From contig NW_004797486.1 of the NCBI RefSeq assembly GCF_000002075.1, forward strand, positions 659,836 to 723,835: a DNA stretch of 64,000 nucleotides, in the 5' to 3' direction. Both the position numbers and the translations under genes were made by a program. Of the stretch, positions 10,401 to 59,686 are shown in pieces; position 1 is the first letter of the stretch; the number at the start of each line of letters is the position of its first letter. Under the pieces are notes generated by a model, which was given only the letters and a program-made list of their open reading frames with translations, was not told the DNA's origin and ran no database searches. This stretch comes from Aplysia californica. Taxonomy: Eukaryota.

Positions 10401-13400
10401 AACCAAAATCATGAAAAAAGGCAGTGCTCTATTAATCCTTTTACTGATCAAACATAACTCTTTTTGCTTACTTCAGCGTAGGAACTATGAATATCAGAAA
10501 CAGTTGTAAATGGAACTAGGTAATTTAGCAAGAGAAGATAAGTTCCTGCTAATACCTTACCTCGAAATTAAGGAGTCTCTAATACAGCATCAGGATAAAT
10601 ATCCTACAACCACTAATGCTTAGAGCGCTGTTACAGCTTTTTGTCACTTTTGTTTTTCAAACTACTTACTTACCAAGTTTGCTCTCAATAAACATACACC
10701 GAAAAACATAAGTGCTCCATCAATTTCCGACCCACGTCCCCTTTATATCATGCTGCAAACTGTCTCAACAATTTTATCTGTATTACCTGTCCTGGGCAAC
10801 AACGTCATTGCACAGCGGACAGGTCCATAAGTGCTCAGTTCCCCCAAGCACCAAAGCCTGCAAGGTATCAATACAATTTTATCTTAATTTAGGAAACATT
10901 ATAGAGCCACAACTTACTTGGTTTCTCCTGTAACATCTTCAGTGACTGAATGGCTGATGACGCCAGCATGGGGGGCTGAGAGGCTGAGAAACAGTATCCC
11001 AGACCAGACAAACGCTGATAGAGAGAAATAACAACTGCCATCAGTAAAGTTTTAGTGTTAGTAAGTGTTTTATAGCACTTGCAACACAATAAGCTCATAT
11101 AAGTGCCGAAGATTAGAAGTTTTACAAGAGAGTAAGTAACAAACACAAAAAAGAAGGAGGAGAGATAAGGACGATAGATGTTTGATAGGAAAGAATAAGC
11201 AAACCACACCAGAGCACCCGCCAACCACCCACTGTCATCAGTAAAGAATATGCACCTCCTTTCACAGACAGCACAACACAGAGACAGATATCAAAATAAC
11301 AACCAGAAGAGAATATACGCACTCTTACAAGGATTACTTGGCATTTTGAGCTTTCAGAACAGACTGAGGCACCTTGGTGAACTAAAATACAAAAGAAGAG
11401 TAGTTATAACAAAATGAGGTTTCCCACGCCAACAGTACAACGATTGTCTCACCCATATAACATGATGTATATGTGTGTGTGCCTAAAGAAAGGTACCAAA
11501 AGTCGCCATAGACTATTTTGAGCTACAGGCTGAAAACGACCAAAAAAAACCCCAACTTTTTTTTACTAAAACGTGTTTCCATTAAAAAATGATAGTTCCT
11601 CCATTTTTTAATAATGTGTCTAAAGGTTTTTTTTTATTGATTTGACTTATAAATATTTTATTTTGAATAATTTTGAGACGAGGGTATTTTTTAAAGAGAT
11701 AATGAAAACTGCTTTTAGAAGGTGTTAAAATTTATTCTTGAAGCATGTTTTCTCTTCCCCGTTATGTTTACCAATGAATTCTAATCATAATTTGATGTCG
11801 ACTAAATGCCAAATTGGAAATTAATTTTCCATGAATAAATACATTAGAAAGAAATGAATCTTTTTTTTTTCAAGTTTGTATGCGTCCCAAATTTAAAAGC
11901 TGATTTTCTCAAAATAAATCTTTATACCCTACCTCACAAAAAGTGCAATATTTCAAAAACTACTTGAGAATCTCAAAAATTAAAAAACCCAGTGTTCAGG
12001 TGGAAAAAGTTCATCATTCAGCTTTCTATTTCACACACAGCACCTTTACTCAAAAATACACCAAAAATTTGTTGTCTTCGTTTGTTTTAGTAGAGGTTTT
12101 ACGGCGCTCGCAACTGTATAAGGTTATATGAGCGCCAGAAGATTAGAGGTGATACAAGAGAGTAAAAAACATTAAAAAAAGAAGGAGGAGAGATAAGGAC
12201 GATAGATGTTCGATAGGAAAGAAGGAGCAAACCCCACCAGAGCACCCACCAACTACCCACATTTGTTGTCTTTAATTCACCCACTGCCGTACCCTCAGAA
12301 AAAACATACTCCATTACCACAACTCCTTGGTTTCAATTTCCTATTTCTGTTCCAGCATGTTGGTTCAGGCACTCATCAGTTTTTGAGGACATGGATAATA
12401 TTGGCATAATCTTAACTGACTGACTACGGTTCCGGTCACCGGTACCAGACCAACAGTCAGTCCACTGATACAGATCCCAGACGAGATGGACTTTGCAGTT
12501 TTATTCCGAAAATTGTGCTCCCGTCACATCAACGGAAACGGACTCCAGTGCTAGTTTTACTACTTCTTTCGTTTTGCGTCCAGTTTGGTGGAAATTGCAT
12601 GGTAAGTTTTTAAGCAATTGAAGGTGAAGGACAATCACCTCAGCTAAAGTTCAACTGACCGGAATTGGCGTTATGTTTTGTCGATATTCACGTCGAAGTA
12701 ACAGTCAAAGAAACAGGCATTCCTTGGATATAGAGTCAAAAGTGCTCTGCAGTAAATGAGTTAAGTAGAACTTTTTTTGAGATTCAAAGTGACAACTGCA
12801 ACAGTTCATCAGGGAGTCTAAAAACAAGTACGAGAAACAAACCGCATTACGGCATTCACAAACAGCCCACACTGATTTAACATAACATTTTAATTTTTCC
12901 TTTTACATCAACCTGTCCACCAAAAATCCTAGTCTTGGGCAGAAGCATGAGAAAATTATGTGACATTATGTTCGCAAATGTTAGACTTAAGCAGCATTTG
13001 TCACTCAAGGGCATTCATGAAATACAATATTAGATCTATTGCTTCCAGCACGGCCGCAAACTATTGATTTTGATTTTTAAGACGGAGAGATTAGTTATTT
13101 TTTAATAAATCACGAACTCACATAAGGCCACATTCATTATTAATTACTGGGTTGACTCGCAGGCCAGACTAAAATTGCTTTCAACTATATCTGGCTTGCA
13201 GGCAGTCTACCCTTCATCAACACAGACAATCCTCCCTTCTGATTCCAAGGATAAGATGAAAATGTGTACGAGCTAGACAGAAGCACATCAACAGGAAATT
13301 TGCGATTTCATGCCAGTAAAAAGCTAGGGAGACAGAGACAGCACAGGGTATTGTAAACAAAAAGCCACAAAAACAACAGAATACCTGGTGGTCAATGATA

Positions 13401-16400
13401 AACTTTTTCCCACAGCAGAAGCCACCAACAGATCCGATAGCATTCTCCAGAGAACAGGAGATCATGTCAATCTGGTCGGGTGAGATGTCGAAGTGTTCGG
13501 TTACCCCACGGCCAGTGGCCCCAAGTACACCAAATGACATGGTCTCCTCCAGAAAGATGCGAACCTTGTACTTCCATTTCAGCTCCACCTGAAAACCAGA
13601 TTGAAACGAATTAATAAAGACAAAACCATGGAAAAGTTAACATGACCAGTAGTATAAATGTTCCAATATTTGAGTATCCACATCGAAAATTATATTATAA
13701 TGAAAAATTTATAATTCTAAAGCAGCTTCATTGTTGTCATAATTTATCTGTGAACACTGTCAAAACAGTCTTATTTCTACTACTTTACATGTAACTCTAT
13801 AGACCATACAGGGAGTTGCAGGGGTGCCAACTATACATAAAAGCCAGTTAAACAGAGATGTATTCATTGTATCTTTTGTATGTTGTTTCTGAGACTCCGA
13901 ATGCAACTATTTGTGCTTTCTTGTGCGACCTGTACCCTTGCAGTTAGCAGTTTAGCTGATCGTGCAATACACGTAAGTGCACACAACTTTGTAAACATCA
14001 AATACTATCTCAACATAGAGAACTCACCAGTTTTGGCAAAGGACAAATGTCGCCACTGTTCAAATAAAGACCTTCCACCAAAATGAAGCGACGAGTCACC
14101 TTGGCCTTTTTCGGGTTCTGTGAATACAATGTATTTGCAGTTGTTCAACAAACGGAAACAGACTTATCAGAAATAGAATTTATAGGCTGCAAACATAATG
14201 ATGTGAAATCTTACACATCTCAATTGTCACATTTAGATTACTTAGGAGGAGGGCTGCTTCAACCCTGCCAGTCAGCGTCAACCTTGAGCTGTGTAAGCAC
14301 ACAAATAGAAATGTGTGTTTTCATGTCATTTACAAATAAGTTGAACACAACCAATGAAAACAGAATCCCATATGGGTTCTTCCATGAGCAAAAAAAAAAC
14401 CAAACAGAGGGCTCTGATTTTATCTTTGTGCTTGACAGGTCTATTGAATTGACAATGTCCAACTTTAGCTTTTCCTGAGATATATTCGAGGCAGGATTAC
14501 AAAGGCAACAACAAAGAAAATCAGCTCACCTTCTTGTCTGCTTTGCTCTGCTCAATGAGCAAAGACTCGAGATGATCCATGTCATTGTGTCTGAACCAGC
14601 GTACGTGACTTCGGGAGGCCACCAGGCCCTTCTGTATTGCAAAGCACACACTCTCGTCTCTACAACAAACGGATACATTAAGGTAACAATTGGATGGTCC
14701 TCACATATATAGAAATATCTAAATGTGCACTAAGATTTTAGGCTAAATAAAAAGTGCAAGGATCAAATGCCTATAAACAAAGCGGGCCATCAATAAATAT
14801 TCAGTCTGTACTGGTTATTTTTTTAAAACATGGATTCTTACTACACAGTTAAAAATAACCAATAGAACACTTCAGTAACTTGCTGCAAGGACACAGACAG
14901 AAAGAAATAATTACAATTTTAAGAATGAAAACACAAAAAAATATTTCAGTTTGGTAGCATCAGACGACCTCAGTGTTTTCTTGTCGTATCCCCCATTTTT
15001 TACAGTGAAAATGTGACTTCTTCTTCAGCCCACTCTTTGTAATGAACTATTTTCACTGTTTAAAAAAATGGAGATACGACAAAAAAGCACCGAGGTCGTG
15101 ATCTGATCAATGATATAATGAACTTGATTCCCATAATTACTGTAACTAAATGTGGAACCACTCAGATACTGACGCAAAAATGAGATCTCCTCGCTTGGAG
15201 TAGGCAGGAATAGCACTGGCAATACATGCAAATCCATATGAGTACAAAATCGCCTCCTCACAGTTCATAAACTTGGACAGTTTGTCTTCCAACTCCAGGT
15301 GCACATCTGGTGGAGAAAAAAAAAAAGGGGGGGAGGCGCAAGGATGGTTACTAACTACAATTTCAAAAGCAAAGGACAACATCAGCACAACAAGATAGAC
15401 CATTAATCTGAATTTAACTAGTAGACCTACTAAACACAAATGTATGTCATTTCCAAGGTGGGGAACTTCACCAAATGGTAGGAGGGTAGAAAAGTAGAGA
15501 AGAAGAAAGAGATGTTTCCATACCAAAGGAAACACCACACATGTACACCTGAGCTGTGTACTTAAGCCTATTATTAAACTACAACAGGGCATATTAGCAG
15601 CATCTGAGGAGACACGAAATTTAAAACATCAATCTTTATTCAGCACTCTTTGATTTTCTGCCATGAGATTGGCCTCATTAGCCACAAGAGGCACAATCAC
15701 AAGATATAACATGTAGGCAATTACAACTCATACACCATAGCGACATGCTTTCAGTTTTATTAGCCTTCATGAACCAGGAGAAGAAAAAGCGTAAAATATC
15801 ATAAAGAACCTTACCCATGGTGCCATAAAATCCTCTTGGCCCACACGATCCAACCCCATAAACACGTAGGGCCTTCACAGCATCTTCCTGTAACAAAATT
15901 GGAGAATTTTCAACACACACAAAAAACACCAAACAATAGCTTTCTAAAAGGGAAGCAGGAGGGCCAATGGTAAAAGAGAAGAGAGACAATATACCATAGT
16001 AATTATCACAAATTTTCATTTGAGCATAGATATTCTATGTGCAATATTACAACTAGGCGGGGAGGGAATTTACATTTTCTGCTGGTATGGAATGAATCTA
16101 TTTTTTTTATCATCCGATTCACAGAGGGGTTGGAGAGCTGCTGACATAAATATCGCTGAAAGCAATCATTTATTCATCACACCCTTCCCTTCCCTACAAG
16201 TATTCTGAGCAAAGTAAAATAGAAAAGAAGGAGAGAAAGGAATACCATGGAGTCAGGTGCACCAAAATCCAACAGTGTTATGCAAAGGAAGTTCCAAAAC
16301 CCTTGACAAACTACTACTGTAACAAATGCAGAAATACAATCAGACCTGTACTGAGCACAAAAGATTACTAAGAAAATGTCATAATAATGATGATATTATT

Positions 16401-19400
16401 AATAACTAACAAACGGCATCTAGACAATGCAGTGCAAACTGCCAATTAAAAGGCGATCAAACATGAATATACTGATTTGATCTTTACTATCCATGCTGTG
16501 TCGTGTATCTATTCCCATTTCAATCAGACCGGAGTTGAGCACAAAAGAAATGGAGCGGAGAAAAAATGTTATAATCATTACAATACCAATAACAAATGGC
16601 ATTTAGGAATGCATTGAAAACAGCCAATTAACAGGCTATCAACTACGAACACCATCAGCACTCTGTTGGAACCTTGTATACTCGAATGTTAAAATTTTAC
16701 AGGAGAGACCAAAAGACTATCTAACATTGTTAACATCAACACCTAGGCAATCAAATTTTGTCAATGTATTGTGATGGGTCTTACACAAAGTCCTACAAAG
16801 AAGTATGTGTTTTACCCGAGCGCATCATTAAGCAATCTCAACTGAGTTAGCGACAAAACATCCTTTGTTTGGTGAGGTTCTCTGTCTCAAGCGCTGCTCC
16901 GTTGAACCTCGCTAAAGTGTTTGTGAAGTTAGAAAAATGCATCAAGTGGCTTACAGTTGCTCTAATCTAACCTTACTGCTTTTGGGTTGTCTTTAAATGC
17001 TCTGGGTCATTTTATATAATGTCCCGATGCCAGTTAGTGAGCTATTATGAGTTTTGGATGGGTGAAAATTTTTTGGTGCCTTAACACATCGAGTGAAATC
17101 GATAAAGTAAGTGACCACACGGAGGAAGATAACAAGATCCAGGTGTTGTTTGCCGTTCGGTTTTTAGTTTTAGAAGAGGTTATACAGCGCCCGCAACTGC
17201 ATAAGGTCATATGAGCGCCAGAAGATTAGAGGTGTTACAAGAGAGTAACAAACATAAAAAAGAAGGGGAGATAAGGACAATAGATGTTTGATAAGAAAGA
17301 AGGAGCAAACCACACCAGAGCACCCGCCAACCATCCACCCGGTTCGGTCTGGATAGTTGTTGGATAATCCAGAGTCCCCAGCATAGAGGTCGCAAATCTT
17401 GACTGGGTTATCAGAACAGCCACCATATCAACATGCACATCTCTACACAGACTCGCAATCACTAATAAAGTACTTTACAGCAGGTGTGACCACAGTCAAA
17501 ACCAAAGTGGAGGACAACTTGTGGATTGCAATATGTCGCTGCTGCGAAATATATGGCCATATCCACATACAATGGATACCGGGCCACTGTAGCAATATTT
17601 ATGGCAACAATAGGGCTGATGCACTGGCCAGCCAAGGCGGTCAACTGGACCAAGCAAATGTAGAAATAGATCTTTGTTGAGGATATGCATTATGCGATAT
17701 GTTATCGCAAACGAAAGGAACCGCACTTGAGTTCATCATTCTGTTGGAGAAAGGGTAAAACCACCACCAGAGCAGACAAGGAGAAAGGTCTCTCCAGAAT
17801 ACAAAGGAGAATATTGTCGCGATAACGGTGCAACACAAAAAAGTCCTACCCTACAGTCATACCTGCGTAGGATAGACTCAACCCCAGACGACTTGTGCCC
17901 GAGATGTGGTGTCAGTCCTGATGACTTAAGACACAAATTATTTGAATGCCTGCAAAGGGACCTGTACCGCAAACCACTACTGCAAGGTAATACCCGGCCC
18001 GAACCAGATGTGCTATGGACCAAACCCAAAGAGTTTGTCACATATATCTCACTGCATGTGGCAGGCTGCTGCCCTCCAGAGAAGGCCAGCTACAGAAGAA
18101 GAAAAAGATAGCAAGATTCACTAACCCTCGTGGCATGACCGGTGCTCTGACAGAACCTCCCTATATCGCGTCAGCAAAGTTCAACAGATTACATATATGT
18201 CCTTGTGTTCGAGAATGAAATTCAGGCAGAATTTAAAGTGCGTTTTCCGATATTTGTAGCTTGAGTCTGGATTAAAATTTATACACACTGTATAGCAAGG
18301 AATCAAGAATTCTTTGGTGAAAAAATTTTTTTTCCACAAAATTTCAAGTTAGCACGGTTCCATCAAAGCACTAACAATAAACAGATTTTACTGTCCATGC
18401 TGTGTACCTATTCCCATCAGAGCAACGAGAGGAAAATGTATATAGTATATAGAGAGTCATTCTGAAAACAAGGAAATAAGACAGTGGAAGTATTTTAATT
18501 GTAAGGCTAATCATACTGCAAATTCCAGGTCGATCTATGCTGTGACAGGTCTTTAAACTCACCTCAATTTCCTTTTTGCCATTCATCCCAAGGAAATTAA
18601 ATATGGCCATGTTGAGGCACGATTTTCCATTGACTTTGATGTATTTTCCATTTTGGCTGAAATGGTAAAAAAAAAGTGAAAAACATTATAAACTTGAAAT
18701 TGAATTACAAAAACAGAAAAAATTTCAACCTTTTTCTTTGAAAACATTTAGAAACAATTTTCAAACTCTTTGAGCCACCTCAAAAAGCAAACAACTTTTT
18801 TCATCTACAAAAAAACAAAACAAAAAAGAAAACAACAACTAAAATTTAAATCCTCTGGTTCCTTTGGAAATGCAGTCACAGTAAAATCAACCGAAGTCAA
18901 GAGACACATATGATGCAACATAGATTCCAAATGTGGTCCAATTCTTTATGAACGGTGAATCAACACAATAACCGCCACACTGTGACAGGGACAGAACACG
19001 ATATTAGCACGACTGGACAGAAGTATAAGGAGTAGACGAAACCAGGATGTGAAAAAACTAAATGCTCCACAACCTATAAACAAACAACAACAACAAAGTC
19101 ATATTGAACAAGCAAAGCGCAACCCTCTCAAGAGTCAAGAGTCTGATAGTATTTAAATTTGGGTAAAAGTGAAGTATAACCCCTTTGTATTAACCCTCAT
19201 CCTGCGGGAGCCGGGTTTATGTAGCCCGATAAGCCTATTTCGGCACCTCGCCTGTGTTCTGGTCCCGAATCAGAGTAGTCCCCGGCTCAGCGCGCATCCT
19301 CTAACGTGTAATTCGGGTCCAGAGTCGGATCTCCATTCACGCAGGTCAAGTGTGTGTGCTCCAGTCTGCTTGAGTTTGTGTGCGTTTGAGGCCTTCTTCT

Positions 19401-22400
19401 AGAACCGCCTGCGTTGGTTCGTAATCGAGGCATACGTCTCATTCAAAACATGCCAAGTTGGTAGCTCTAGATGTTCAGTCAATGAAATTATAGAAAAAAT
19501 TGACCCGCTTAGACATGAGGAGCTCGAAAGGATAGTCAGGAAACAAGACTTCCATTTTTCTATACAAAATATTTCAAATGAGCTTGATTTTGTATGAAAT
19601 GATACTACCTGATAAAAAAATAAGCTTGTTTGATAGTTTTGAATACCATTGTGCAGGTACAAAGAACAATTTGAGTGTAAAACATTCGGAAATTGACCTA
19701 AATTATCCCCTTTCGAACCTCAGGTCATTCATAACAACAAGAGCGTCGAGAAAGGTTATTCGAATGGGCGTAACTACTCGTAATGTCTTATCAGCTTGTG
19801 AGAGGGGGTTATTCATGTGTTTGTAACACTTTATAAATAGAAAGCTATGAAAGATAGAGCGTTATTTTCATCCTCGGTTAACACACTCCCACGGTATTCA
19901 TGGCGAAAACACATGTTTCCCGGCGCGCGCGCTGTACACCAAAAGTACACACTGAGTGACCCCGGCGGCCTGCCCGGCACGTCCGACGTAATCGGTTGCT
20001 GATAAGATACGCATCTGAGCACAGACGCAGGATAAGAGTTAAAGCATCACCAAAATCATTGTTCAGTTTCCTTCCTGTTCCTGTTAGACATAGCTGCAAG
20101 TCCACTGTTTTTTAGTTTTAGTAAGTGTTTTACGGTACTTTTAGTTTTAGCAAGTGTTTTACGGCACTTGCAAAACAATAAGGTCATGTAAGTGCCGAAG
20201 ATTAAAGGTGTTACAAGAGAGTAACAAACACAAATAAAAGGAGCAGAGATAAGGACGATAGATGTTTGATAGAAAAGAAGAAGCAAACCACACCAGAGCA
20301 CCTGCCAACCACCCACAAGTCTACTGTGACGCGAGAGATTATGCACTAGCAGTTCGAAATGAAGAGGGGGTGTGGGCTATGTTAAACTTTACTTTCAACT
20401 AGTAATTTACCCTTCTATACAGTATTTCTCCATGGCTCTCAAAGCTGGGTGGTCGTCCGGTACGTCCGGCGCCAGTGGTTCCGGCTCCCACTCCTCCACC
20501 AGAATGTCCTTCTCCTGGGGACGTCACAGCAAACAAATTGATTAGGAGAAACAGAACTTTTTATAAAAAGATTCAGTGAAAAATAAGTACAATGATTTTA
20601 AATCTCTTGACAGACTATGATGTGAATCATCGACAAGTTCACCGATTACTCATTTTCCTTTTTCAAAGCACACACTTGAAATGTATGACATTGAATTTCC
20701 AAACTTATTACATCTGTAACAATAGAAAACTTTTATATGTGCTTTTGATACCTGAATTCATCAAGTCAGCAAGTATTCCTACTGCTTACTTTTACATGTT
20801 GTTGTTGTTGTTTTCAAATCCTTTTAGCTGCGAGCATTTCGCTCTTGGCAGCGCAATGCCTCCCTCAAGTAACCACATGTCCTTGTCATTTGGTCAGCGC
20901 CAGAGTATACTTTTACATATATATAAGAACAATGTATGCTGAATCAACATTTAAAAAATCTCCATCAGGACATAATTTTAATTAGCTGCTTATGATTGCC
21001 AGTATTCATTTAATAATCATAAATCTGGCTCCCTAAAAATCGTACTATTAATGTAATATCACCTTTTCAAGAGTATATCCATGGTTCAAAGCAGTAAGTA
21101 CAGAAATTATTTCATTGAAACCACCAACACAATTTCTAATTCCGTGAAAATCTTTGCACAAAACAAAAATTGTCTTCCACTGCTCACCTTTTCTGTAAGA
21201 ACTGCTTTTTCAGGAGAAAAACTCGAAGCCAAGTAGATCTTGACAATGAGCACAATCAGAGTCACTTCAAATATGACATGATACATAGGAGCCTGTAGAA
21301 ATAAAAATGAAACTGGCTCACAACATGCAAACAGTATTAGCATCAGATCAGCATCTTAATTCAATCTTTGTCACAATTACTAAACCTTACCTGACCTCAC
21401 AATAAATGGCAGTTTGCAAATGTTAGACCACATTTCAGTTCTGTTTTTCCACACTCGATGCATCACAATTCAGAAAAGGTTTAGAGTCTCGTTCAAGGTG
21501 AAGATTATAACACTTTTGGGCCATTCCATGAGAAGTGACACACATAATGCTGGAAGGTTAACCTGTGCAGTTATAGTGAGCCATTAATTGTTAAAGGATG
21601 GTTGCACCTAATCAAAAAAAAAGTAAAGAAAGCCTCTTTCACTCTCAAAATATTTTCAGTAGATCATGTGACATGTGTCACTTTTCTTATGGCCCTTTTC
21701 CACTTTCAGCATCACAGCTGTACAAGAAACATTAAATTTGCAGTATTGGACCTGTTTCACTTGGATATCAAACCATGTTTTTAAAATGATTTTTGGAGTG
21801 ATTTGAATGAATTTGACCATCATAATCATTGCAAATCAACCTTACCTAAATGTGAACAAATAAGGGGGCAAAACCTCTCCCCCTCCCGCACCTTGAACAT
21901 AGATCAGAATGGTTTTGATTTTGAGGGTTAAATTCTTCCAAATCAAGCCAATTTATGCGAAAATCTCTCATTTATTCACTTATTCATTACACTCCGGGGA
22001 ACAAACCCGCCTGAAACTCCCAGTTTAAAAGTTATCTAGCAGCGTATCTCTCGCTTTCTTTCAGAAAAACATATATGTCACTATGTCATTCACTATTCAG
22101 ACAACGGGGGTGTGATGAATCAGATTATAGTATTCGGACCCCACTTCTTTCTGACTTTCGTACTTAGACCCCCGTTGTCCGGGTTCCTGCTGGAGCCTGT
22201 ATCAGTCTGGCTCTCCTAGTCCAGTGCACGTGCGCCAAGCATCATCCGTGTGATGACCGTGTGTGTGCGTTAGTCTGCTTGAGTTTGTGTGCGTTTATGG
22301 CTTACTTGTAGAATGTAGAACTGCCTACGCTGGTTCATAACCGAGGAGTACAGCTCATTCAAAACACATCAAGTTGGTAGCTCTAGATGTTCGTCCAATG

Positions 22401-24561
22401 AAATTATAACAAATTGGCCCACTTTGACATGAGGAGCTCAGACAGCTCTGTGTAAGATTTGCATCTCGGCACCGACGCAGAACATGAGTTTTAAGTAAGT
22501 CTAGTCGATTAAGAATCTAGATCTAGGCGCCTACATATTCATAATACTAGAATCTAGGAAGTGACTATCCTCACCCGGAGTGATAAGATCGACCTCTCAC
22601 CCCGGGTGATACTTGCCAGTGTCGGCTATTCTCACCCACTGTGAAAGAAGACCTGTTTTTCCTAATTTCGGAATACTGTCTATCGGTGTGGATGATCAAA
22701 TTTGACAAAAGCAAAGAAAAAAATGACATTATAGCACAAAAGCAAGCTAATTTGACCATCAGCAAAGATGCTATGGCTATTTCACTTTTCTAATCAAGCC
22801 GAACTACGCGGGTCGCCTTTTTGTTTTGCCCGCAAGTTCTCGCAAGATCTACTCCTCCTCTCTGGCTCTCTCTCTCTCTCCGTGTCTTTCTGAATACTGT
22901 CTACCAGTGTGGACGATCAAATTGACCAAAACAAACTCTCTCTCTCTCTCTCTCACTGCCCACAGACGAAACTGCACGCTTTTCAAGAGCGCTGGAATGT
23001 TTGTTCACGACACAGAATTCTACACCTCTGTTATTTATCACAGTGTAGAATTCAGTGGTTCACTGTGAATGCTACACTGGTATTCCTAGACTATAACATA
23101 TCACGGTGAACGCTTTATTCGGACTCGAGTCCCTATAATATTTTTTCATATCCAGACTCGAGTCCGAATTTTAAACAATTCTTATTCGGACTCCAGTTCA
23201 AATATGAAAAAATGTTATTCGGACACGGGTCCCAAAAAAAGGAAGTGTCTTCGCTCTATAGAGATCTAAAGTTCAGTGCTTCCAATTTTCCGCCATTTTT
23301 TAGTTTCTCCCACACCTTATCTGCCGACCCAATGCCCGCCGCCTCAGTGATACGCCCCCCCCCCCACCCCCCATGTTTCCCACTTTCTTTGTTGTAGAAA
23401 AAGGTAAAATTTAAGATTAGCAGACCACCTGGCACCTGCACATTATGAGCTGTGTAAAAAAAAAAAAAGACCGATTCGTTCAAATACACACAAGCCTGTG
23501 TCATCTCGATTGTCTACCAAGAAAAAGTTGTGTTGCTGTGAAGAGCCGAGCATACGGCAACTTTTGATTCCATAGACAAGCGCACAATTCAATATAATGT
23601 AGATCTAGATCTACATCAAGACTAGCTTATTATTGTAATATTAGTTAATAATAATGATCAGTTGCCGGGGGATAAAAGACTGACGCGGGTATGCCACGTT
23701 CAACACCCGGACCGATAGTGCCCCCCCCCCTCCCCGACACGCACACATAGCCACACGTGTGCAGGCCGCCCATCTGACCCCGACACACGCTAACGAGCCA
23801 TCTTTAATTGCTTCTGGTGCCTCTTGACAAATAAACATTTATTAGAAGCGCTCTAACTTTTCAGGCCGGCCTCAAGTTCATCATAAGATAAAAACTCGGC
23901 TCCTGCACAAAACGCCATTTTGCCCTAAGTGATCCCGGTCTCAACCCAGCCTGAGGCAAGTCACGAGTGAGGCAGGACAGGAAGCCGGAGTCACGAGTCA
24001 CAGGAAGTCGGAAGTGATGTTATGCTGGACAAGAATCAGTCCGAATAACATTTTTTTTTCATATTCGGACTCGAGTCCGAATAGTCACAAGTAAAGTCTG
24101 GAAGGACTTCCTACCATAACGAGCGACCACAACTGCCCCAACAAACAGAATTAGGAGGAGACCGCCAATTTTATCCCTCTCTATTCCACTGACCACTCTG
24201 TCTCATTGTGGCAACGGAAGTCCTCCCCCAAGTCTAAAAGGAGACTAAATTTATTCTTTAAAAGTAGATCTTAACTTAAAGTAGATTAGATCTAGACTCT
24301 AGATCTAGATATCTAGATAGATCTCTAGTCTTAGGCCTAAATAATCAAGAATTCTTGCTAGATTGCTAGAAATCTAGAATCCAGTCGGCCATAGTTTGAC
24401 ATTAGTTGACGGAAGGCCAGGGCCAGGACCTACAAACAAACATCCGTACATTTCCAAGATGAATCTAAACAGGGATTCCTCTAAACAAATCAAATCTTTA
24501 TTACCTGTAATACTCCTTGTATCAAATCATACATGTCCCATGTCGCAGGTATGATCGCCAT
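7371..24561 (-). CDS. SPTLC1: Serine palmitoyltransferase long chain base subunit 1, full gene model (14 exons, 1443 nt, 480 aa)
   Basis: complement(join 7371-7479,8264-8337,9197-9314,10188-10242,10918-11014,13385-13588,14028-14117,14530-14659,15174-15306,15815-15887,18563-18656,20411-20514,21188-21292,24505-24561); all introns GT-AG with consistent phases; motifs [44 protein letters not shown] (Asn in place of the PLP Lys, as in LCB1), RLSG.GYCFSAS. Confidence 0.97.
8264..8337 (-). CDS. SPTLC1: SPTLC1 exon 13
   Basis: [24 protein letters not shown](S); 74 nt, AG/GT flanks. Confidence 0.9.
9197..9314 (-). CDS. SPTLC1: SPTLC1 exon 12
   Basis: [39 protein letters not shown]; 118 nt. Confidence 0.9.
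9428..9620 (+). mobile_element. tRNA-derived SINE (family B variant)
   Basis: A box TAGCCTAGTGG, B box GGTTCGAGCC, shared GTGTCCTTGGGAAAGGCAC core; body differs from the 37305 copy. Confidence 0.75.
10188..10242 (-). CDS. SPTLC1: SPTLC1 exon 11
   Basis: (S)[17 protein letters not shown](N); 55 nt, phases fit both neighbours. Confidence 0.88.
10918..11014 (-). CDS. SPTLC1: SPTLC1 exon 10
   Basis: [32 protein letters not shown]; 97 nt. Confidence 0.95.
11050..11230 (-). mobile_element. Family A short retroposon
   Basis: ~180-bp repeat; 16-bp TSD ACTG(C/T)CATCAGTAAAG at 11034-11049 and 11231-11246. Confidence 0.9.
12079..12260 (-). mobile_element. Family A short retroposon
   Basis: 12-bp TSD ATTTGTTGTCTT at 12067-12078 and 12261-12272. 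Confidence 0.9.
13385..13588 (-). CDS. SPTLC1: SPTLC1 exon 9
   Basis: [33 protein letters not shown]...[23 protein letters not shown]; 204 nt. Confidence 0.96.
14028..14117 (-). CDS. SPTLC1: SPTLC1 exon 8
   Basis: [30 protein letters not shown]; 90 nt. Confidence 0.95.
14530..14659 (-). CDS. SPTLC1: SPTLC1 exon 7
   Basis: [43 protein letters not shown]; 130 nt. Confidence 0.95.
15174..15306 (-). CDS. SPTLC1: SPTLC1 exon 6
   Basis: (D)[43 protein letters not shown](A); 133 nt. Confidence 0.96.
15815..15887 (-). CDS. SPTLC1: SPTLC1 exon 5
   Basis: [24 protein letters not shown]; 73 nt. Confidence 0.96.
17162..17339 (-). mobile_element. Family A short retroposon, in or abutting a LINE remnant
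   Basis: Matches the family consensus; short TSD GTTCGGT on both sides. Confidence 0.88.
17340..18110 (+). mobile_element. Degenerate 3' fragment of an Ingi/I-group LINE (RNase H plus CCHC knuckle)
   Basis: Frameshifted [27 protein letters not shown]...HKLFEC; ends in a (GAA)n-like tail. Confidence 0.8.
18563..18656 (-). CDS. SPTLC1: SPTLC1 exon 4
   Basis: [31 protein letters not shown]; 94 nt. Confidence 0.94.
19194..20038. mobile_element. piggyBac-type non-autonomous element
   Basis: TTAA on both sides (19190-19193, 20039-20042); TIR CCCTCATCCTGCG / CGCAGGATAAGAG; internal segment repeated at 22261-22492. Confidence 0.7.
20109..20316 (-). mobile_element. Family A short retroposon with duplicated 3' tail
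   Basis: 11-bp TSD AAGTC(C/T)ACTGT at 20098-20108 and 20317-20327; ~30 nt of the tail repeated in tandem. Confidence 0.9.
20411..20514 (-). CDS. SPTLC1: SPTLC1 exon 3
   Basis: [34 protein letters not shown](G); 104 nt. Confidence 0.93.
21188..21292 (-). CDS. SPTLC1: SPTLC1 exon 2 (transmembrane helix)
   Basis: [35 protein letters not shown]; 105 nt. Confidence 0.93.
22261..22492. mobile_element. Deleted relative of the piggyBac-type element at 19194
   Basis: Co-linear match to 19350-19526 followed by the right-end motif GACGCAG..ATGAGTT. Confidence 0.65.
24505..24561 (-). CDS. SPTLC1: SPTLC1 exon 1
   Basis: caaaATGGCG start; [19 protein letters not shown]; 57 nt; CAG|GTAATA donor. Confidence 0.88.
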
Positions 24562-25872: not shown

Positions 25873-25887
25873 ATCTGCCAAGGATCC

Positions 25888-26041: not shown

Positions 26042-26253
26042 GTTGATCAAGATTCTAGTTTTATTTTATCTTGAACTTGAAAAAGTTTTCAGCTGGAAAA
26101 TGCATGTACACGCATTTTCAGTTTCAGTGCGACGCTCCGTGACTGCGAGAGCTAGATCTACATGGGGAAGAACGCTTTGCATGTGGAGCTGTAAAAGTGG
26201 CCAGCCTAAAAGGAGACAGCAAAATAAAATAAATATATTATAGATTTCCCTAC

Positions 26254-26421
26254 GGGGTGGTGTGTGGGCGCTCTGGTGTGGTTTGCACCCTCCTTCCTAT
26301 CAAACACTTATCGGCGTAATTATCTCTCTCCTCTTTAAATTGTATAGTACTCTTTAATCTTCGGTACTTATATGACTTCTAAGTTGCTGGTGCCGCATAA
26401 AACTCTTATCTTTTATACTAA
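26254..26421 (+). mobile_element. Family A short retroposon, diverged; the only plus-strand copy
   Basis: GCTCTGGTGTGGTTTGC..TTCCTATCAAACA..TAATCTTCGGTACTTATATGAC..GTGCCG matches the reverse complement of the other copies. Confidence 0.8.
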
Positions 26422-26669: not shown

Positions 26670-26670
<1 letters not shown>

Positions 26671-26722
<52 letters not shown>

Positions 26723-26760: not shown

Positions 26761-26904
26761 AGTGAGTGAAATTTGTTATTACAATATATCGCTGTGAAAA
26801 TATGAAATAGTGTAGGTTCCGATTAGTTCATTTAACAGGCGGAATCTCCCATTTTAAAAAAAAGTCCATCTCCAAATGATTAAGGGACTGAGCCAAATAG
26901 GACA

Positions 26905-26990
26905 TTCGTGCAAAGTGCCTTTTCCCAAGGACACAACATCGGACCGAGCTGAGGCTCGAACCCCCGAACCCGCAATCTTACGATTACGGG
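26905..26990 (-). mobile_element. Family B SINE fragment
   Basis: Reverse complement of the B box and GTGTCCTTGGGAAAAGGCAC core. Confidence 0.7.
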
Positions 26991-27021
26991 TAATGATTTA
27001 AACATAGGCCAATTATTTTAT

Positions 27022-28533: not shown

Positions 28534-30006
28534 TAGTAGTCTCCGCCTAAGATCTCACCGCTTACAATCCTGGTTCTCTTGTTAAGATTCTGCTGTTTTA
28601 AGAAAACATATTTTTTTGCTTCACATAAGTCAGCCTCTAAGATTCCACACTGAAAGATGTCGCATTTAAGTTTTGTTTTAAGCTCCTTGGTTTGGGATAA
28701 TAAATTATGGGAAAAAAACCTCGGACGGGCGCAACTGATCTTCAACCAAGCAGTAACATTTGCGATCATTGTACTGCCCGTTGCGTCACAGATCATCCAC
28801 TCGTGAATAATAATAATGATCACATCTCCGTTGTAACGGTAGGCTACAATGTTTGTCCCAGACGAGATCACACAAACGTATGAACTCGTAGACGTGTTTG
28901 TTTTCCTCAATTACTATCGCACTCGCATCTGAGCTCTCCACCTAAACTTACACCACAAAAGCTGGGCCAGTAGGGCCTTATAACTTATTATAAGTCAAGG
29001 TCAGGCGGGATCACATCGAATTGTGAACTCTTCGCTGCTTCTGTTTTCCTGACCACTGCAGCAGTTGTCTCTGCATTCCAGTTTAAAAAAAAATTTTTTT
29101 TTTTTGGTAAGTGTTTTACGGCGCTCGCAACTGCATAGGTCATATGAGCGCGCGGGACACACCAAACATTTTCACTTGACAGGAAATTTTGAATTTAACC
29201 GGGTGGCGGCCGAAGCCTACTCTTACCGATTTTGGACCACCAAGGGATCTTTAACGTGCGCCAAGATTTTTCACTCTTGTCCGAGAAGGCTAGGTGTAGA
29301 TCCTTCCTACCAGAAGATCAGGGGTGTGGCTGAAAGACAGCAGTAAGAAGCGGCCAGGTAGTTGTAGTAGAAAGGCTGCAGAAAGTCAGGAGCCCAGTGG
29401 ATGGGGCAAAGGAGGTGAGGGGGTGGGGAAAGAAAGTGGAGACGAAAGCAGACGACAGAATATTGCAAGAGACGAGGAAAAAAGGTGAAAGGAGACAATT
29501 TTAGAGAAGAAAAATTTTCAGTCGCTACTCAGATTCGAACCCAGGACCCTTGAATGAGAGGCGAACACCTTAACCTCTAGGCCATGAGAGCACCCCATCC
29601 AAATTTGCTATAGACAGACTGAATTTTAATCGGTGCGGTCACATCGCAATGGTGTGTTACCAGAGGCTGGGGAACTCAGACTCAGAGATAGCAAGCTATA
29701 AATTTTGAGCAGGTAAATAGGAGGAATCATGAGATCGGCGTATATCTCGAGACAACAATTTTATAATTGAAAATTGCATGCCACATGCCACTGTGATTGG
29801 TCATCAAGGTTTGCTCAAATTAAGTAATAAACCCACCCAGGGGTCATATCAGTTCATTTCAGATGAAAGGACACCATTTTACCGATTTTGGGACTGCCCA
29901 TGAGTCACCGTGGAGTATACCTTTGGTGCGTCGGATAAAATCCCCTTCGCCTAAGATCCAGCATTTTCTTTGCTCCCAAGCCCCGAAATCTTAGGCGGGG
30001 ACTATA
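28534..30006. mobile_element. Tigger/pogo-like MITE (copy 1), interrupted by a SINE
   Basis: TIR TAGTCTCCGCCTAAGAT; co-linear with 60601-61532. Confidence 0.85.
29094..29596 (-). mobile_element. tRNA-derived SINE with a Nin/Deu-like motif and the family-A 3' tail
   Basis: Minus strand: A box TGGCCTAGAGG, B box GGTTCGAATC, GCACGTTAAAGATCCC, then GCGCTCATATGACCTATGCAGTTGCGAGCGCCGTAAAACACTTAC(A)n. Confidence 0.8.
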
Positions 30007-32875: not shown

Positions 32876-34047
32876 CTACAGTATAGACGAAGAGTCAAAA
32901 GAAGCAAGACAGAGGTTTAGACAAATAACCATGGCAACATTTAAAAATAAATTGAGCATAAAACTGTGTGTAAATCAAGCAAAAATTAACATCAAGAAGT
33001 TCTGGGATAGGCACACCTCTCAAAAAATCATGAGCTTTCACAATAGATTAAAACAAGATCAATGTAAACTTAATTCACAAGGAAGTAAACTCTCAAAATT
33101 TTTTGGGGGGGTGGGTTTTTTTTCATGGAGGGGGGGAAGAAAGTGAGGTATGCTCATCCCTGGCCTTCCTGTGTCCGTCTTTACATTAATATATGACAAG
33201 TGTAAGTTACAGAATTGCCAGAACAAGTTTTTTAAAGAAACATCATATTTCATGGCGCAAAGCACAGAGATTAGAAGCCCCCCCCCCCAAGAAAAAAAAC
33301 ACCTAGACTTTGGAAGTGAAAGATAACTGTTGGGGAGAAAGAGTGAGGTAACCAAAAAACAAAAACCCAACAAAAACTGACTTAAAAGTTTATGTTCTAC
33401 TCTTTGTTTTGCATGACAACAACCAAAAAAACTTACAAAACAAATCTTAGTCATGAAAATATAAAAGATTAAGAAGCAAATTTTTTTTTTTTTAATGGCA
33501 CATACGATGTAAATGGGACTGACACAACGCCACATGAGTCTTCTTAAGAATTCATTGATTGAAAAATCAAAACAACAAACCAAACCAGAATTCAGCAATA
33601 AATGCTGCAGAAAACGATTTTGATTTTTGTGCATCTGTTTTACAGAAAACAATGCCTAAGATGCATACATATGCTGGAACAAGGGAAGTTATGCCAAAAA
33701 AGTAAACGATACATATAACTCAACCCCTAAATTGCAGAAGCCATGCAACAAATACAAACTGATATGATACTTGCTTAAATCATTAGCATGTACGAAAGCA
33801 CACCAAGTATAAAATAATAGCCCTCAAACTATCTAAGGTAAAATGTAATTTCTTTTTAAAACTTGCAGAACAATGTAACAGGTGGAGAAAACCCAGGAAG
33901 GGAAAAGTAAAATACCATCATTATCACTACAATACAATAGACTACAATCACCAAAAACATCCGAAACAGTCTCAAACCACACATAAATAAACAAGTGATA
34001 GAAGTCCTGTCACAAAAAAAAAAATCAAAGCAAAGCCATATATGATT

Positions 34048-34299
34048 AACTGATCGCTTTTAAGGACAAGTGGGCTAACCCAGAATTCGGGGGTTTGTAT
34101 AAATCTTGACCTACATCAAAAGTGGGCATTGCACTACCCATGGGAGAAGTTGGTTTCATTGGTGTATATATTTGTTTAGTTAGAGAGAAAACTCTCCTTG
34201 TCTTTTAAAGAAACTGAACAAGGGGCAAAAACTTTACCTTCAATTTTCTCAAAACAGGATTTTTTGGGATAGCCCCTTTGTGCTTAAAAGCGACCAATT
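34048..34299. mobile_element. ~240-bp MITE (copy 1)
   Basis: TIR GGTCGCTTTTAAG, AATT-type flank; inverted copy at 58958-59203. Confidence 0.8.
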
Positions 34300-37304: not shown

Positions 37305-37645
37305 AGACCAGTGGTTAGGCTCTCGGACTCGCAACCGTAAGGTCGTGGGTTCGAATCCCGTCAGAGACCCAACGTTGTGTCCTTGGGAAAGGCACTTTAC
37401 ACGAATTTTCCTCACTTAACCCAGGTGGAAATGGGTACCCGGCTATAGACAGCGAAAGATCTTGTCAGTTTGTTAGTGTTTGAGCGCTTAATCGGCTGCT
37501 TTGCACTGTATGCTTCCCGGGAAGCTGAGAATGTTTCGGAGTGTTCTATGGTCTGCTGGGGTAATAATATAGTGTAAAGCGCATAGAGCCTGCTGTTGAG
37601 CGGGGATATGCGCTATACAAATGCTATCTATTATTATTATTATTT
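37305..37645 (+). mobile_element. Family B tRNA-derived SINE, near full length
   Basis: CAGTGGTTAG, B box GGTTCGAATCCC, core ..CCCAGGTGGAAATGGGTACC, tail GCGCTATACAAATG(TTA)n. Confidence 0.88.
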
Positions 37646-37746
37646 TAGAACATGTTTCACCAGCAGTCCCACTATTACAGTTTGCTGCAAGCTCATCCTA
37701 AGGACGGCAGTGGTATAAGAAGGTTTGTATAAACAATGATAGTACA

Positions 37747-39090: not shown

Positions 39091-56643
<17,553 letters not shown>

Positions 56644-56981
56644 CTGTTGCAGAGCCAAATGAACAAGAGAGAACGACTGAATAATTATGTCATAAGCGGG
56701 TGTTTGTTTTAGTAACAGTAGTCTTTAGTACAAGAAGAAATTAAACAGAAGCAGTAAATTGCTGGTCGCAGAAATGTTTTCTGCAAAACTTGCTCGAGAA
56801 CATACCCCCATGACCTTCCACCTGAAACCCAGCATACAAACATTTCTTGATGATCTTTCTACACTCACTTATAATAGTATTATTAGAATTTCTGAAACAC
56901 ATCATTAACAGAAACACATTAATAAAGTAAATGTCCAGAGCAGTCCACAGCCAGTCAACACATTTCACTAGGACCATATTA

Positions 56982-57157
56982 GTTAGATTTAGTAAGAGCT
57001 TTACGGCACTTGCAACACAATAAGGTCATACAAGTGCCGAAGATTAGGTGTTACCTGAGAGTAACAAACACAAAAAAAAGGAGGACAGATCAGGACAATA
57101 GGTGTTTGCTAGGAAAGAAGGAGCAAACCCCACCAGAGCACCCGCAAACCATCCACA
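56982..57157 (-). mobile_element. Family A short retroposon
   Basis: Diverged 12-bp TSD AGGACCATATTA / AGGAACAGATTA. Confidence 0.85.
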
Positions 57158-57559: not shown

Positions 57560-58230
57560 GGCGTAGGCAGTCTACTGGTTAGGCTGTCAGGCTCATAACT
57601 GAAAGATCATGGCTTGGAAATCTGTCACAAGTCTGCCATTGTGTTCTTGTGGCGTCGGTGGCCTAGTGGTTAGGCTACCAGACTCATAATCGTGAGATGG
57701 TGGGTTCGGGGGTTCGAGCCATGGGCCCGACGTTATGTCCTTGGGAAAGGCACTCTATACGAATTTTCCTCACTTCACCCAGGTGGGAATGGGTACCCGG
57801 TGTTTGAACGCCTATAAATGGCCCCTTGTACAGTATGCTTCCCAGGAAGTTGAGGTTGCTTCAGAATGCTCTCAGGTCTGCTGGGGTAATGGTATAGATT
57901 GTGAAGTGCATAGTGCTTGCTGTTGGGCGAGGATTTGTGATATACAAATGCTATCTATTTTTATTCTTCTTCTCAGACAAGGCATTTTTACAAGAATTTT
58001 CCTCACTTCACCCAGGTAGAAATGGGTACCGTGCTATAGACAGCAAAAGATCTTGTCGATATGTTTAATGTTTGAGCACTTAATCAGCTCCTTGCACTGT
58101 AGGCTTCCCACAAAGCTGAGAACGCTTTTGAGAGTTCCAGGGTCAGATAAGGTAATACTAGTTGTAAGGCGCCTAGAGCATGCTATTGAGCATGGATATG
58201 CGCTATACAAATGCCATTTTTATTATTATT
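57560..58230 (+). mobile_element. Family B SINE with a second family B SINE nested at ~57650-57972
   Basis: Two tRNA-like heads, two cores and two tails in the order head1-head2-core2-tail2-core1-tail1. Confidence 0.82.
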
Positions 58231-58957
58231 GCTTGTAAAACTTTACAGTGAGGAACACAATGAAAAAAAAAGGATAAATAGCAGACAATATTAAAATGCT
58301 GAGTAATAAGTGTCAAAAGAAAAATAGCTTGTAAACTCTTATATTAACCAATAATATAGAAAAAATTTTTTTTTTTAGATCACTTTAAACCAATTAAAGA
58401 GATGTTTAAGTAAAAAAGGAATGATAACAATACTTGTATAACTTTAAAAATAACATTGCAATGTTGAAAAATAAGATATTATTATGATCCCTGTTCTATT
58501 ATCGCTGTTCCACTTTATTATGTTACTAAATTATAATCATACAAAATTGGAATATTTACAGAATGGGAAAACCTGGGAAACATTTTTTAAATCTGCAATG
58601 TAATTCCACATAAAGTAACTGGATATCCGGTAAACAAAAACAAATTTGCTTTCTTAAAAGGGTTTTAGCCAAATAAAAAAATATATGCAAAAATGAACGC
58701 AAATATTGAAACAATAACAAACAAAACAAAAAAAACTTTAAAAATTTTAAAGTAAAAAACATTCAGAAAAAGCTACTCTACAAACCAACCAAAGGCTACA
58801 ATACCAAAGCATGCATTAGAGACAGGAATAACTAAACCAAAGCAAAAAAAAAAAAAGCCTATCATATCACAAAAAGACCCAATGCATGCAAAGAACAAAA
58901 TGATCAAAACATTTCCACTTGATATATATCACTGTCTTAAAGACAGTAGCCACAAGT

Positions 58958-59203
58958 AATTGGTCAATTTTAAGCACAAGGGGGCTATCCCGAAAAATGC
59001 TGTCCTGAGAAAAGGTAAAGTTTTTGCCCCTTGTTCAGTTTCTTTAAAATACAAGGAGAGTTCTCTATAACCAAACTAATATACACAATAATGAAACCAA
59101 ATTTCTCCTATAGGTAGGGCAATGCCCACTTTTGGTGTAGGTCATGATTTCTGAAAACCCCCGAAATCTGGGTTAGCCCGCTTGTCCTTAAAAGCGACCA
59201 ATT
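58958..59203. mobile_element. ~240-bp MITE (copy 2, inverted relative to 34048)
   Basis: AATT at both ends; TIR GGTC(A/G)(A/C)TTTTAAG. Confidence 0.8.
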
Positions 59204-59553
59204 AGACTTTTGTTTCAACCAAGCATACCACAGAATACAAGATCTTGATAGTGCAAGTCCACCTTTTATAGACTTTATATTCAGAATGCTGAAGGCTTTA
59301 ATTTAAAGAGCTTCTCGCTTTACCATAATCTAATTTCCATCCTTCATGATGATATAGGACAGCACACCAGAGACAACAATATTTTCTTAAAGAACGCATA
59401 GCTTCGTCACAAGTAAGGTGTGCAGAACAACAAAAAAAAGGCAAATGAATCAACAAATAATATATAATGTGAAACATCAAACAGCACAAGTCAAGTTCAA
59501 TGAGCAGATGAAAGAAAATACTAGTTGCTGGGAGCAGCACATTTATTGTGTCT

Positions 59554-59686
59554 TTTGTTTAAGTAAGAGTATTACGGCACTTGCAACACAATAAGGTCAT
59601 ATAAGTGCTGAATATTAGATGTGTTACAATAGAGTAACAAACACAAAAAAAAGGAGGAGAGATAAGGACGATAGATGTTTGACAGG
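59554..59686 (-). mobile_element. Family A retroposon, 5'-truncated
   Basis: Tail and body present, head absent. Confidence 0.85.

What the first reader, a model, noticed from the sequence alone, without database searches (positions are those of the whole stretch)
11050..59686. Family A: a promoter-less ~180-bp retroposon with a fixed 5' end
Seen: 11 copies, most with 7-16-bp TSDs and an (ACTAAA)-like tail, the hallmarks of target-primed reverse transcription. There is no tRNA/5S/7SL head or A/B box, yet nine minus-strand copies start at essentially the same point (GTGGGTGGTTGGCGGG), which random 5' truncation would not produce. Inference: the RNA is cut out of host Pol II transcripts such as introns. 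The G-rich start has four GG runs (possible two-tier quadruplex) and could block 5' exonuclease. That would be a SINE that uses host introns as its promoter.
Basis: partly seen in the sequence, partly recalled or inferred. Interest (0 to 1): 0.72.

Follow-up and report, generated by a model that had tools for sequence, protein, structure and literature searches.

The report
Snail retroposon with unknown fixed head
This is a short (about 180-letter), very abundant jumping-gene family in what is probably a gastropod genome: its copies start at one fixed point and lack the usual tRNA-type promoter, and it likely carries its own LINE-type promoter and likely borrows a Nimb LINE's copying enzyme, rather than being cut out of host introns.

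Summary
The family is real. There are 11 copies in the window, nine minus-strand copies start at one base, and 6 of 11 have firm target-site duplications. Genome-wide contigs show thousands of copies ending at that base with unrelated upstream flanks, so there is no hidden tRNA head or common LINE extension. No A/B box or Rfam match was found. The last ~57 nt is a stem-loop tail of I/Nimb-LINE type, shared with a tRNA-headed SINE in the same window. Two subfamilies have near-identical head+body (117/120) but different tails (34/41), which points to tail swapping. The head's origin was not found. The 8/8 sense bias in introns is not a prediction of that model. Best reading (0.42): an internal Pol II promoter in the head, with a DPE-like motif at +28, as in LP-SINEs and SIDEs. 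Most novel reading left open (0.07): the spliceosome cuts it out from a GT start to a branch-point-like tail. Repbase and Dfam could not be searched.

The parts
11050..11232 (-). Family A copy, tail type A1, in an SPTLC1 intron; its 3' end lies about 20-35 nt before a splice acceptor
   Evidence: 16-bp TSD with 1 mismatch; exon next to it
12079..12260 (-). Family A copy, tail type A2, SPTLC1 intron
   Evidence: perfect 12-bp TSD at 12272-12261 and 12078-12067
17162..17338 (-). Family A copy, tail type A2, SPTLC1 intron
   Evidence: borderline 7-bp TSD
20109..20316 (-). Family A copy, tail type A1, with a 29-bp tandem duplication of the tail, SPTLC1 intron
   Evidence: 12-bp TSD with 1 mismatch
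26253..26415 (+). Older, 33% diverged copy; same start column; positions +18 to +34 identical to the young copies; probably intergenic
   Evidence: no TSD above chance
39244..39426 (-). Family A copy, tail type A2, last mapped CAD intron, about 40-50 nt before the acceptor
   Evidence: perfect 11-bp TSD
43514..45319 (-). Family A copy, tail type A1, expanded to 1.8 kb by an internal 37/40-nt minisatellite (43617-45283, 44.2 copies), CAD intron
   Evidence: TSD at chance level
53633..53805 (-). Family A copy, A1-like, CAD intron, ending next to an exon
   Evidence: 13-bp TSD with 1 mismatch
55367..55547 (-). Family A copy, tail type A2, CAD intron; used as the reference for read laying
   Evidence: perfect 11-bp TSD, 2 nt off the start
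56981..57156 (-). Family A copy, tail type A1, upstream of the first mapped CAD exon
   Evidence: TSD at chance level
59551..59688 (-). Family A copy lacking the first ~40 nt, tail type A1
   Evidence: TSD at chance level
55514..55547 (-). Head (shown on the 55.5 kb copy): G/T-rich +1 to +34, GT start, DPE-like RGWY at +28 to +31; origin unknown
   Evidence: no Rfam or A/B box match
55424..55513 (-). Body: pyrimidine-rich, T6 run near +81, small GTTAC/GTAAC hairpin; source of the minisatellite unit
55367..55423 (-). Tail: 7-bp stem-loop followed by GTAAAAC and short A-rich repeats; I/Nimb-LINE type
29096..29600 (-). Separate tRNA-headed SINE (A and B boxes; Nin/Deu-like core by recall) that shares only the last ~57 nt with family A
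   Evidence: its junction also appears in 1320 and 1352 RNA reads

Best explanation
[quoted passage not shown] Shown: copies, TSDs, the fixed 5' end, no Pol III boxes, and a tail shared with another SINE and resembling a published I/Nimb 3' end. Inferred: the fixed 5' end is the transcription start; the +18 to +34 block works as a downstream core promoter; the head came from a LINE 5' end by internal deletion or template switch; the two tails were exchanged by template switching; intronic copies are sense-oriented because antisense copies are selected against or because of insertion preference.
For: Fixed 5' end genome-wide: contig loose ends at the 5' base number 1934+1354 in X1 and 798+2523+1705 in X2, with upstream agreement only 0.35-0.38. 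Tail: 27 of 31 columns match the razor-clam I/Nimb 3' end in a hand alignment (panel C), and the scallop MESC tail has the same layout. The stem is 85.7% paired against 29-57% in slid controls, with two pairs changed on both sides. Modular build: A1 vs A2 head+body 117/120, tail 34/41; A2 tail vs the tRNA-headed SINE's tail 39/41. Promoter hint: RGWY at +28 to +31 in 10 of 10 copies with a head, a pattern found at 2 of 37 positions of the head; +18 to +34 is unchanged in the 33% diverged copy. PMC4748587 (passages) places DPEs at +28 to +32 in I, jockey, Doc, F, G, SART1 and TRAS1. A T6-T8 run in 8 of 10 young copies argues against Pol III. Molluscan SINEs with LINE-derived heads exist (PMC4758252 section 10).
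Against: No LINE carrying this head was found: the window's Ingi-type LINE shows only short chance-level matches and another tail, and all collection scans were empty. The head does not resemble the published LP-SINE head by eye. The DPE match is 4 of 5 letters, post hoc, against a recalled consensus, and no initiator motif is evident. A 17-nt identical run somewhere in a 25-33% diverged copy is not rare. No pile-up of RNA read ends at +1, and 78% of laid RNA reads run on into other sequence. The T-run argument is weakened because the tRNA-headed SINE copy also has T5 and T6 runs. Tail covariation is only suggestive (35 and 36 of 500 shuffles reach it). PMC5786205 lists only RTE, Ingi, Vingi and R2 as makers of bipartite elements, not Nimb.
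Confidence: 0.42

Rival explanations
1. Master-gene model: one or a few source loci lie downstream of an external Pol II promoter that starts at the GT; all daughter copies are promoter-dead, as proposed for SINEU and Sadhu.
For: Fixed 5' end with no recognisable internal promoter. Head and body are near-identical across two tail types. Precedent in PMC4494074 passages.
Against: At least three lineages (A1, A2, the old copy) and about 10^5 laid contigs need several long-lived sources. No common upstream sequence is seen, although a single source locus would be invisible in that table.
Confidence: 0.17
2. Suffix-like element: the whole 180 nt is the 3' end of a Nimb LINE, amplified as a unit because of a promoter at that junction or because reverse transcriptase stalls at the G-rich tract.
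For: Drosophila suffix is such a case (PMC1868783 passages). The body is pyrimidine-rich like LINE 3' UTRs (recalled), and the G-rich tract lies exactly at the 5' boundary.
Against: Upstream flanks show no shared sequence (agreement 0.35-0.38; a shared extension in more than about 10% of copies should show). The tail differs more than the body between subfamilies. No coding signal (p = 0.64). Protein searches found only two stray translations and no RT fusion.
Confidence: 0.15
3. One reading: the RNA is cut out of host Pol II transcripts, either by a ribozyme or an exonuclease block at the G-rich start, or by the spliceosome using the GT start as a nested donor and the TACTAA-like tail as branch point.
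For: 8 of 8 copies between mapped exons are sense to the host gene (p = 0.008). Seven of nine full heads begin GT, and the tail holds TACTAA-like hexamers. Two copies end within about 50 nt of a splice acceptor. Most family RNA is embedded in longer transcripts. Precedents: R2 SIDEs, ribozyme-bearing LINEs, snoRTE.
Against: How an RNA is made does not bias the orientation of new insertions, so the sense bias is not a prediction of this model (inference). Poly(A)-like ends on the antisense strand at +81 (1788 and 1805 reads) offer a selective reason for the bias. No Rfam ribozyme, no hit to my HDV descriptor, head folding z between -2.0 and +0.6. G4 weak, and the two-tier pattern occurs 97 times in the window. 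None of six mapped CAD donors has G at +4. No tail-to-head joints among the 15 best-supported joints in RNA (347 not shown). The tail hexamer is expected from LINE ancestry alone.
Confidence: 0.15
4. An atypical Pol III SINE whose head derives from a small RNA too diverged to recognise.
For: Size, fixed 5' end and abundance are SINE-like. The T-run test is weakened by its control.
Against: No A or B box in 11 of 11 copies with positive controls working. No Rfam match at E < 1 on the element's strand. T6-T8 run in 8 of 10 young copies.
Confidence: 0.05

Closest known systems
LP-SINEs of gastropods and bivalves (Lsa_2, Hdi/Hmi_LP, Sgl_LP, Oco/Oed_LP; PMC4758252)
   Same: Molluscan, short, TSD-flanked, no tRNA head, proposed Pol II promoter in the head, ACTAAA near the 3' end in one group.
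   Different: Their ~70-nt head is homologous to Nimb-17_LMi, I-3_DR and RTE-9_CPB; family A's head shows no likeness by eye to the scallop version. They are about 255 bp; family A is about 180 bp.
Nimb-tailed molluscan SINEs (Meta/MESC, V; PMC11481361) and the tRNA-headed SINE at 29096-29600
   Same: Same type of 3' stem-loop tail, with homology limited to the last 35-61 bp.
   Different: They have tRNA heads with A/B boxes and a conserved core domain; family A has neither.
Bipartite non-autonomous LINEs / SIDEs (RIME, NARTc, SIDER, Vingi and RTE derivatives, R2 SIDEs; PMC5786205, PMC4748587)
   Same: Short, fixed 5' end, LINE tail, no Pol III promoter; Pr77 carries a DPE.
   Different: A parent LINE with the same head is their defining feature and was not found here. 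No ribozyme was detected. Nimb is not among the clades listed as producing them.
Drosophila suffix (PMC1868783)
   Same: Short retroelement with a LINE 3' end and no Pol III promoter.
   Different: Suffix includes coding sequence of the F element and also occurs attached to it; family A shows no coding signal and no common upstream extension.
SINEU, Sadhu, snoRTE/PlatSINE1 and GC-rich-headed bird SINEs (PMC4494074, PMC7245038)
   Same: Retroposons without an internal Pol III promoter, some thought to depend on outside transcription.
   Different: SINEU and snoRTE have recognisable snRNA or snoRNA heads; family A matches no Rfam family.

Membership tests
Non-autonomous non-LTR retroposon (broad SINE) | Variable-length target-site duplications | tested here: met
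   6 of 11 firm, 1 borderline, 4 at chance
Non-autonomous non-LTR retroposon (broad SINE) | Short, non-coding, high copy number, simple-repeat 3' end | tested here: met
Non-autonomous non-LTR retroposon (broad SINE) | 3' tail shared with a LINE | tested here: inconclusive
   matches a published bivalve I/Nimb 3' end by hand alignment and another SINE's tail; the LINE of this genome was not found
SINE1/SINE2/SINE3 (Pol III SINEs) | Head from 7SL, tRNA or 5S RNA with internal boxes | tested here: not met
   (positive controls worked for A/B boxes)
LP-SINE | About 70-nt head homologous to the Nimb-17_LMi 5' end | tested here: not met
   by-eye comparison with the scallop head in supplementary Fig. 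S2; Fig. 3 itself not held
LP-SINE | Head derived from some LINE 5' UTR | not testable with these tools
   no host genome or Repbase held
Bipartite non-autonomous LINE / SIDE | 5' end identical to that of a parent LINE | tested here: inconclusive
   no match to the one LINE in the window, whose 5' end is missing; collection scans empty
Bipartite non-autonomous LINE / SIDE | HDV-like ribozyme at the 5' end (RTE, Ingi, R2 types) | tested here: inconclusive
   no Rfam hit; 0 of 11 with my own descriptor, which had no positive control
Bipartite non-autonomous LINE / SIDE | Internal Pol II promoter with DPE near +28 | tested here: inconclusive
   4-of-5 match at +28 in 10 of 10 heads; activity not testable
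Suffix-like LINE 3' fragment | Whole element contained in the LINE 3' end; some copies extend into the LINE | tested here: inconclusive
   no common upstream sequence in the best-supported loose ends; a rare extension would be hidden
snoRTE / SINEU | Head from a snoRNA or snRNA | tested here: not met
Already catalogued family (for example the Repbase CALSINE series) | Sequence match to a Repbase or Dfam entry | not testable with these tools
   neither library is held; only CALSINE3, a CORE SINE, is named in the searchable papers

The most novel reading that the evidence does not exclude
A retroposon defined by the spliceosome: inside a host intron its GT start acts as a nested 5' splice donor and its TACTAA-like tail as the branch point, so the lariat loop is the element itself. 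After debranching and trimming, a Nimb reverse transcriptase copies it. This would give a fixed 5' end with no promoter and no ribozyme, and make sense-oriented intronic copies the active sources.
Probability: 0.07. Interest if true: 0.88.

Novelty: new variant of a known kind. Interest (0 to 1): 0.42.

Why it matters
Short retroposons without a Pol III head are rare, and for several of them (LP-SINEs, SINEU, Sadhu) how they are transcribed is still open. This family is abundant (about 10^5 laid contigs; 0.14-0.15% of poly(A) reads touch it), has a sharp 5' end, and its head has stayed constant while its tail was swapped. One 5'-end mapping experiment would separate own promoter, borrowed promoter and processing. 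If the head is an internal Pol II promoter, it adds Nimb-tailed elements to the short LINE-promoter class with a second, unrelated head. If it is processed from introns by splicing, it would be a new route to a mobile RNA. If it proves to be a catalogued repeat or a LINE fragment, it is a routine annotation.

Tried and rejected
No whole genome is held for this window. Exact-pattern scans for head, body or tail found nothing in viral contigs, metagenome contigs or prokaryote genomes; a loose tail pattern gave 2 viral loci that are coding-like chance matches. Rfam at E <= 10 on two copies gave only sub-threshold hits, best E 0.085 on the opposite strand. The Ingi-type LINE at 48.4-51.6 kb (RT and RNase H) was rejected as partner: it ends in (AG)n and shares nothing beyond short chance-level matches. 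LP-SINE membership was rejected by eye. RNAalifold's end-to-end fold has a covariation term of +0.35 and 1 of 24 pairs with a two-sided change, so I do not accept it. One search used a mis-registered structure string and is void; one search replaces it. An apparent excess of synonymous changes between the old and young heads was not above chance (p = 0.64). ESM Atlas gave no usable hit; the word-based protein search gave none; the profile search gave 2 proteins, both stray translations of copies with no RT. A recalled likeness of the first 25 nt to the 7SL/Alu 5' end was dropped because Rfam shows nothing. The bacterial promoter scan is irrelevant to this host. The supposed last SPTLC1 exon at 7.4 kb was not confirmed and is not used. 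Four look-ups in the scan's earlier findings returned nothing. Literature searches for this family; none listed a paper describing it, but most subscription papers, Repbase Reports and Dfam are outside the library.


Full report
Setting. The window is animal DNA with two minus-strand host genes. CAD exons map from 56647 to a stop at 39094. SPTLC1 exons were confirmed at 20520-20431, 15292-15161 and 11014-10919. The mapped CAD exons are 52-91% identical to the Elysia protein and 42-70% to the sponge and bird proteins. A tRNA-headed CORE-like SINE in the window has the CCTTGGGAAAG motif and a size like those described for sea-hare CORE SINEs. The host is therefore probably a gastropod; this is an inference. 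No host genome is held.

Observation. Eleven copies lie between 11050 and 59688. Nine minus-strand copies start in one column, one lacks its first ~40 nt, and one older plus-strand copy starts in the same column. Young copies lie 7-15% from the majority, the old copy 33%. Six of 11 have firm TSDs of 11-16 bp, one is borderline and four are at chance level, judged against 110 mismatched flank pairs. No copy has an A or B box, whereas four tRNA-headed SINE copies in the window score as expected. Rfam and ARAGORN find nothing. One copy has grown to 1.8 kb through a 37/40-nt internal minisatellite.

Genome-wide test. I laid two contig sets and two poly(A) RNA runs on one A2-type copy at 82% likeness. 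131,564 and 255,331 contigs were laid, and the tool warns that some loose ends were not counted. At the 5' base, loose ends number 1934+1354 (X1) and 798+2523+1705 (X2), and their upstream letters agree only 0.35-0.38, about the level of unrelated AT-rich flanks. The 5' end is thus fixed across thousands of copies, and no tRNA head or LINE ORF is attached to a sizeable share of them. Only six loose-end rows per run were shown (1233 hidden), so a rare extension is not excluded. In RNA, 21,740 of 14.8 million and 20,304 of 14.8 million reads were laid, on both strands about equally (strandedness unknown). 78% ran on into other sequence, and no place showed many molecules beginning or ending. Poly(A) selection and fragmentation could hide a 180-nt RNA, so this is weak evidence.

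The tail. The last ~57 nt fold into a 7-bp stem-loop in most copies. The stem is 85.7% paired against 29-57% when slid, with two pairs changed on both sides; 35 and 36 of 500 shuffles reach those values, so the support is suggestive. A tRNA-headed SINE at 29600-29096 shares exactly this tail, and its junction is seen in 1320 and 1352 RNA reads. By hand alignment, 27 of 31 columns of the A1 tail match the I/Nimb LINE 3' end printed in supplementary Fig. 1C of PMC11481361; the scallop MESC tail in the supplement of PMC4758252 has the same layout. The Ingi-type LINE in the window has a different end and is not the partner. Two subfamilies share head and body (117 of 120) but differ in the tail (34 of 41), and the A2 tail is nearly that of the tRNA-headed SINE (39 of 41) (majorities of 5 and 4 copies). 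I infer tail exchange by template switching, which makes head+body a module of its own rather than part of one LINE's 3' end.

The head. Its origin was not found. It does not resemble the LP-SINE head (by eye), any Rfam family, or a coding fragment. The quadruplex is weak: 1 of 8 heads folds as G4, scores are 0.84-1.44 with 2 of 8 above a recalled cut-off of 1.2, and the two-tier pattern occurs 97 times in the window. My HDV descriptor found nothing in 11 copies but had no positive control. Two hints point to Pol II. A T6-T8 run lies near +80 in 8 of 10 young copies, although the tRNA-headed control also has T5 and T6 runs. RGWY sits at +28 to +31 in 10 of 10 heads, within a +18 to +34 block unchanged in the old copy. 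PMC4748587 places DPEs at +28 to +32 in I-group and jockey-group LINE promoters. The match is 4 of 5 letters of a recalled consensus and was noticed after the fact.

Orientation. Eight of eight copies between mapped exons are sense to the host gene (p = 0.008); two more lie upstream of the first mapped CAD exon on the same strand; the one plus-strand copy is probably intergenic. CORE-like SINEs in the same regions mostly lie the other way. The way an RNA is produced does not orient new insertions, so this bias does not follow from the intron model. In RNA, 1788 and 1805 reads carry a 31-33-nt A run on the antisense strand at +81. If these are poly(A) tails, antisense copies end host transcripts and would be purged from introns; T-tract expansions in a few expressed copies are an alternative.

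Mechanism. Shown: insertion hallmarks, fixed 5' end, no Pol III head, Nimb-type tail. Inferred: mobilisation by a Nimb reverse transcriptase, and the source of the RNA. I give 0.42 to an internal Pol II promoter, 0.17 to a master gene under an outside promoter, 0.15 to a suffix-like LINE fragment, 0.15 to processing from host transcripts (0.07 of it the spliceosome version) and 0.05 to atypical Pol III. The spliceosome version rests on the GT start (7 of 9 young heads), TACTAA-like tails and two copies ending close to acceptors. Against it, none of six mapped donors has G at +4, no tail-to-head RNA joint is among the 15 shown, and the tail hexamer is expected from LINE ancestry.

Comparison and novelty. 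It works like LP-SINEs and bipartite SIDEs but fails or cannot be tested on their defining features, so I file it only as a non-autonomous non-LTR retroposon with a head of unknown origin. What I saw of each paper: PMC4758252, passages, sections 9 (part 1), 10 and 12, supplementary table 2, part 1 of 5 of the supplementary PDF and a search in it; PMC5786205, part 1 of 5 and passages; PMC11481361, passages and one supplementary figure, its FASTA library being unreadable here; PMC4824008, PMC11203168, PMC2996970, PMC4494074, PMC1868783, PMC7245038 and PMC4748587, passages only. Ten searches listed no paper on this family. Repbase has sea-hare SINEs named CALSINE, and family A may be one of them; I could not check. 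The labels Nin/Deu, CORE and Ingi for neighbouring elements are from recall plus the cited passages.

Verdict. Observation confirmed and extended genome-wide; interpretation partly supported; new variant of a known kind; interest 0.42.

Noticed in passing
43617-45283: A 37/40-nt unit from the body of one family A copy is expanded about 44 times; the same 37-40-nt duplication appears in other genomic copies and in 315 and 263 RNA reads (joints).
   Followed up: partly
55467 (element position +81): 1788 and 1805 RNA reads carry a 31-33-nt A run on the antisense strand here: possibly a poly(A) site supplied by antisense copies.
   Followed up: no
11015-11060 and 39195-39262: Two sense copies end within about 50 nt of a splice acceptor; the first carries a perfect TACTAAC in its tail and might supply the branch point of that intron.
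   Followed up: partly
29096-29600 (-): tRNA-headed SINE with a ~250-nt pyrimidine-rich stretch before its core; 16 of 18 nt of it match family A +107 to +124 (E 0.002 in one small comparison). It sits inside a DNA-transposon-like repeat also found at 60.6-61.5 kb.
   Followed up: partly
48400-51600 (-): Broken Ingi-type LINE (RT and RNase H, several frameshifts and stops, (AG)n end) in a CAD intron; its 5' end is missing.
   Followed up: partly
9430-9550, 26904-26991, 37290-37650, 57569-58234: tRNA-headed CORE-like SINE copies with an (ATT)n end, five of about six on the plus strand, opposite to family A.
   Followed up: partly
45822-45842, 47487-47563, 62472-62489 (-): Short head-like or decayed matches, all on the minus strand; they may be very old or internally deleted copies, or chance.
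   Followed up: partly
55547-55548 upstream flanks: Majority letters upstream of the 5' end are T-rich with an A-rich patch at about -8 to -12, fitting a TT/AAA-type target and 10-13-bp TSDs; G is the majority at -4 in one group in all four runs, unexplained.
   Followed up: no
34047-34299 and 58958-59204; 35034-35287; 23114-23239: MITE-like elements with terminal inverted repeats.
   Followed up: no
17731-18111 (+): Open frame resembling the zinc-knuckle end of an Ingi/Vingi-type LINE protein (by recall; no Pfam hit).
   Followed up: partly
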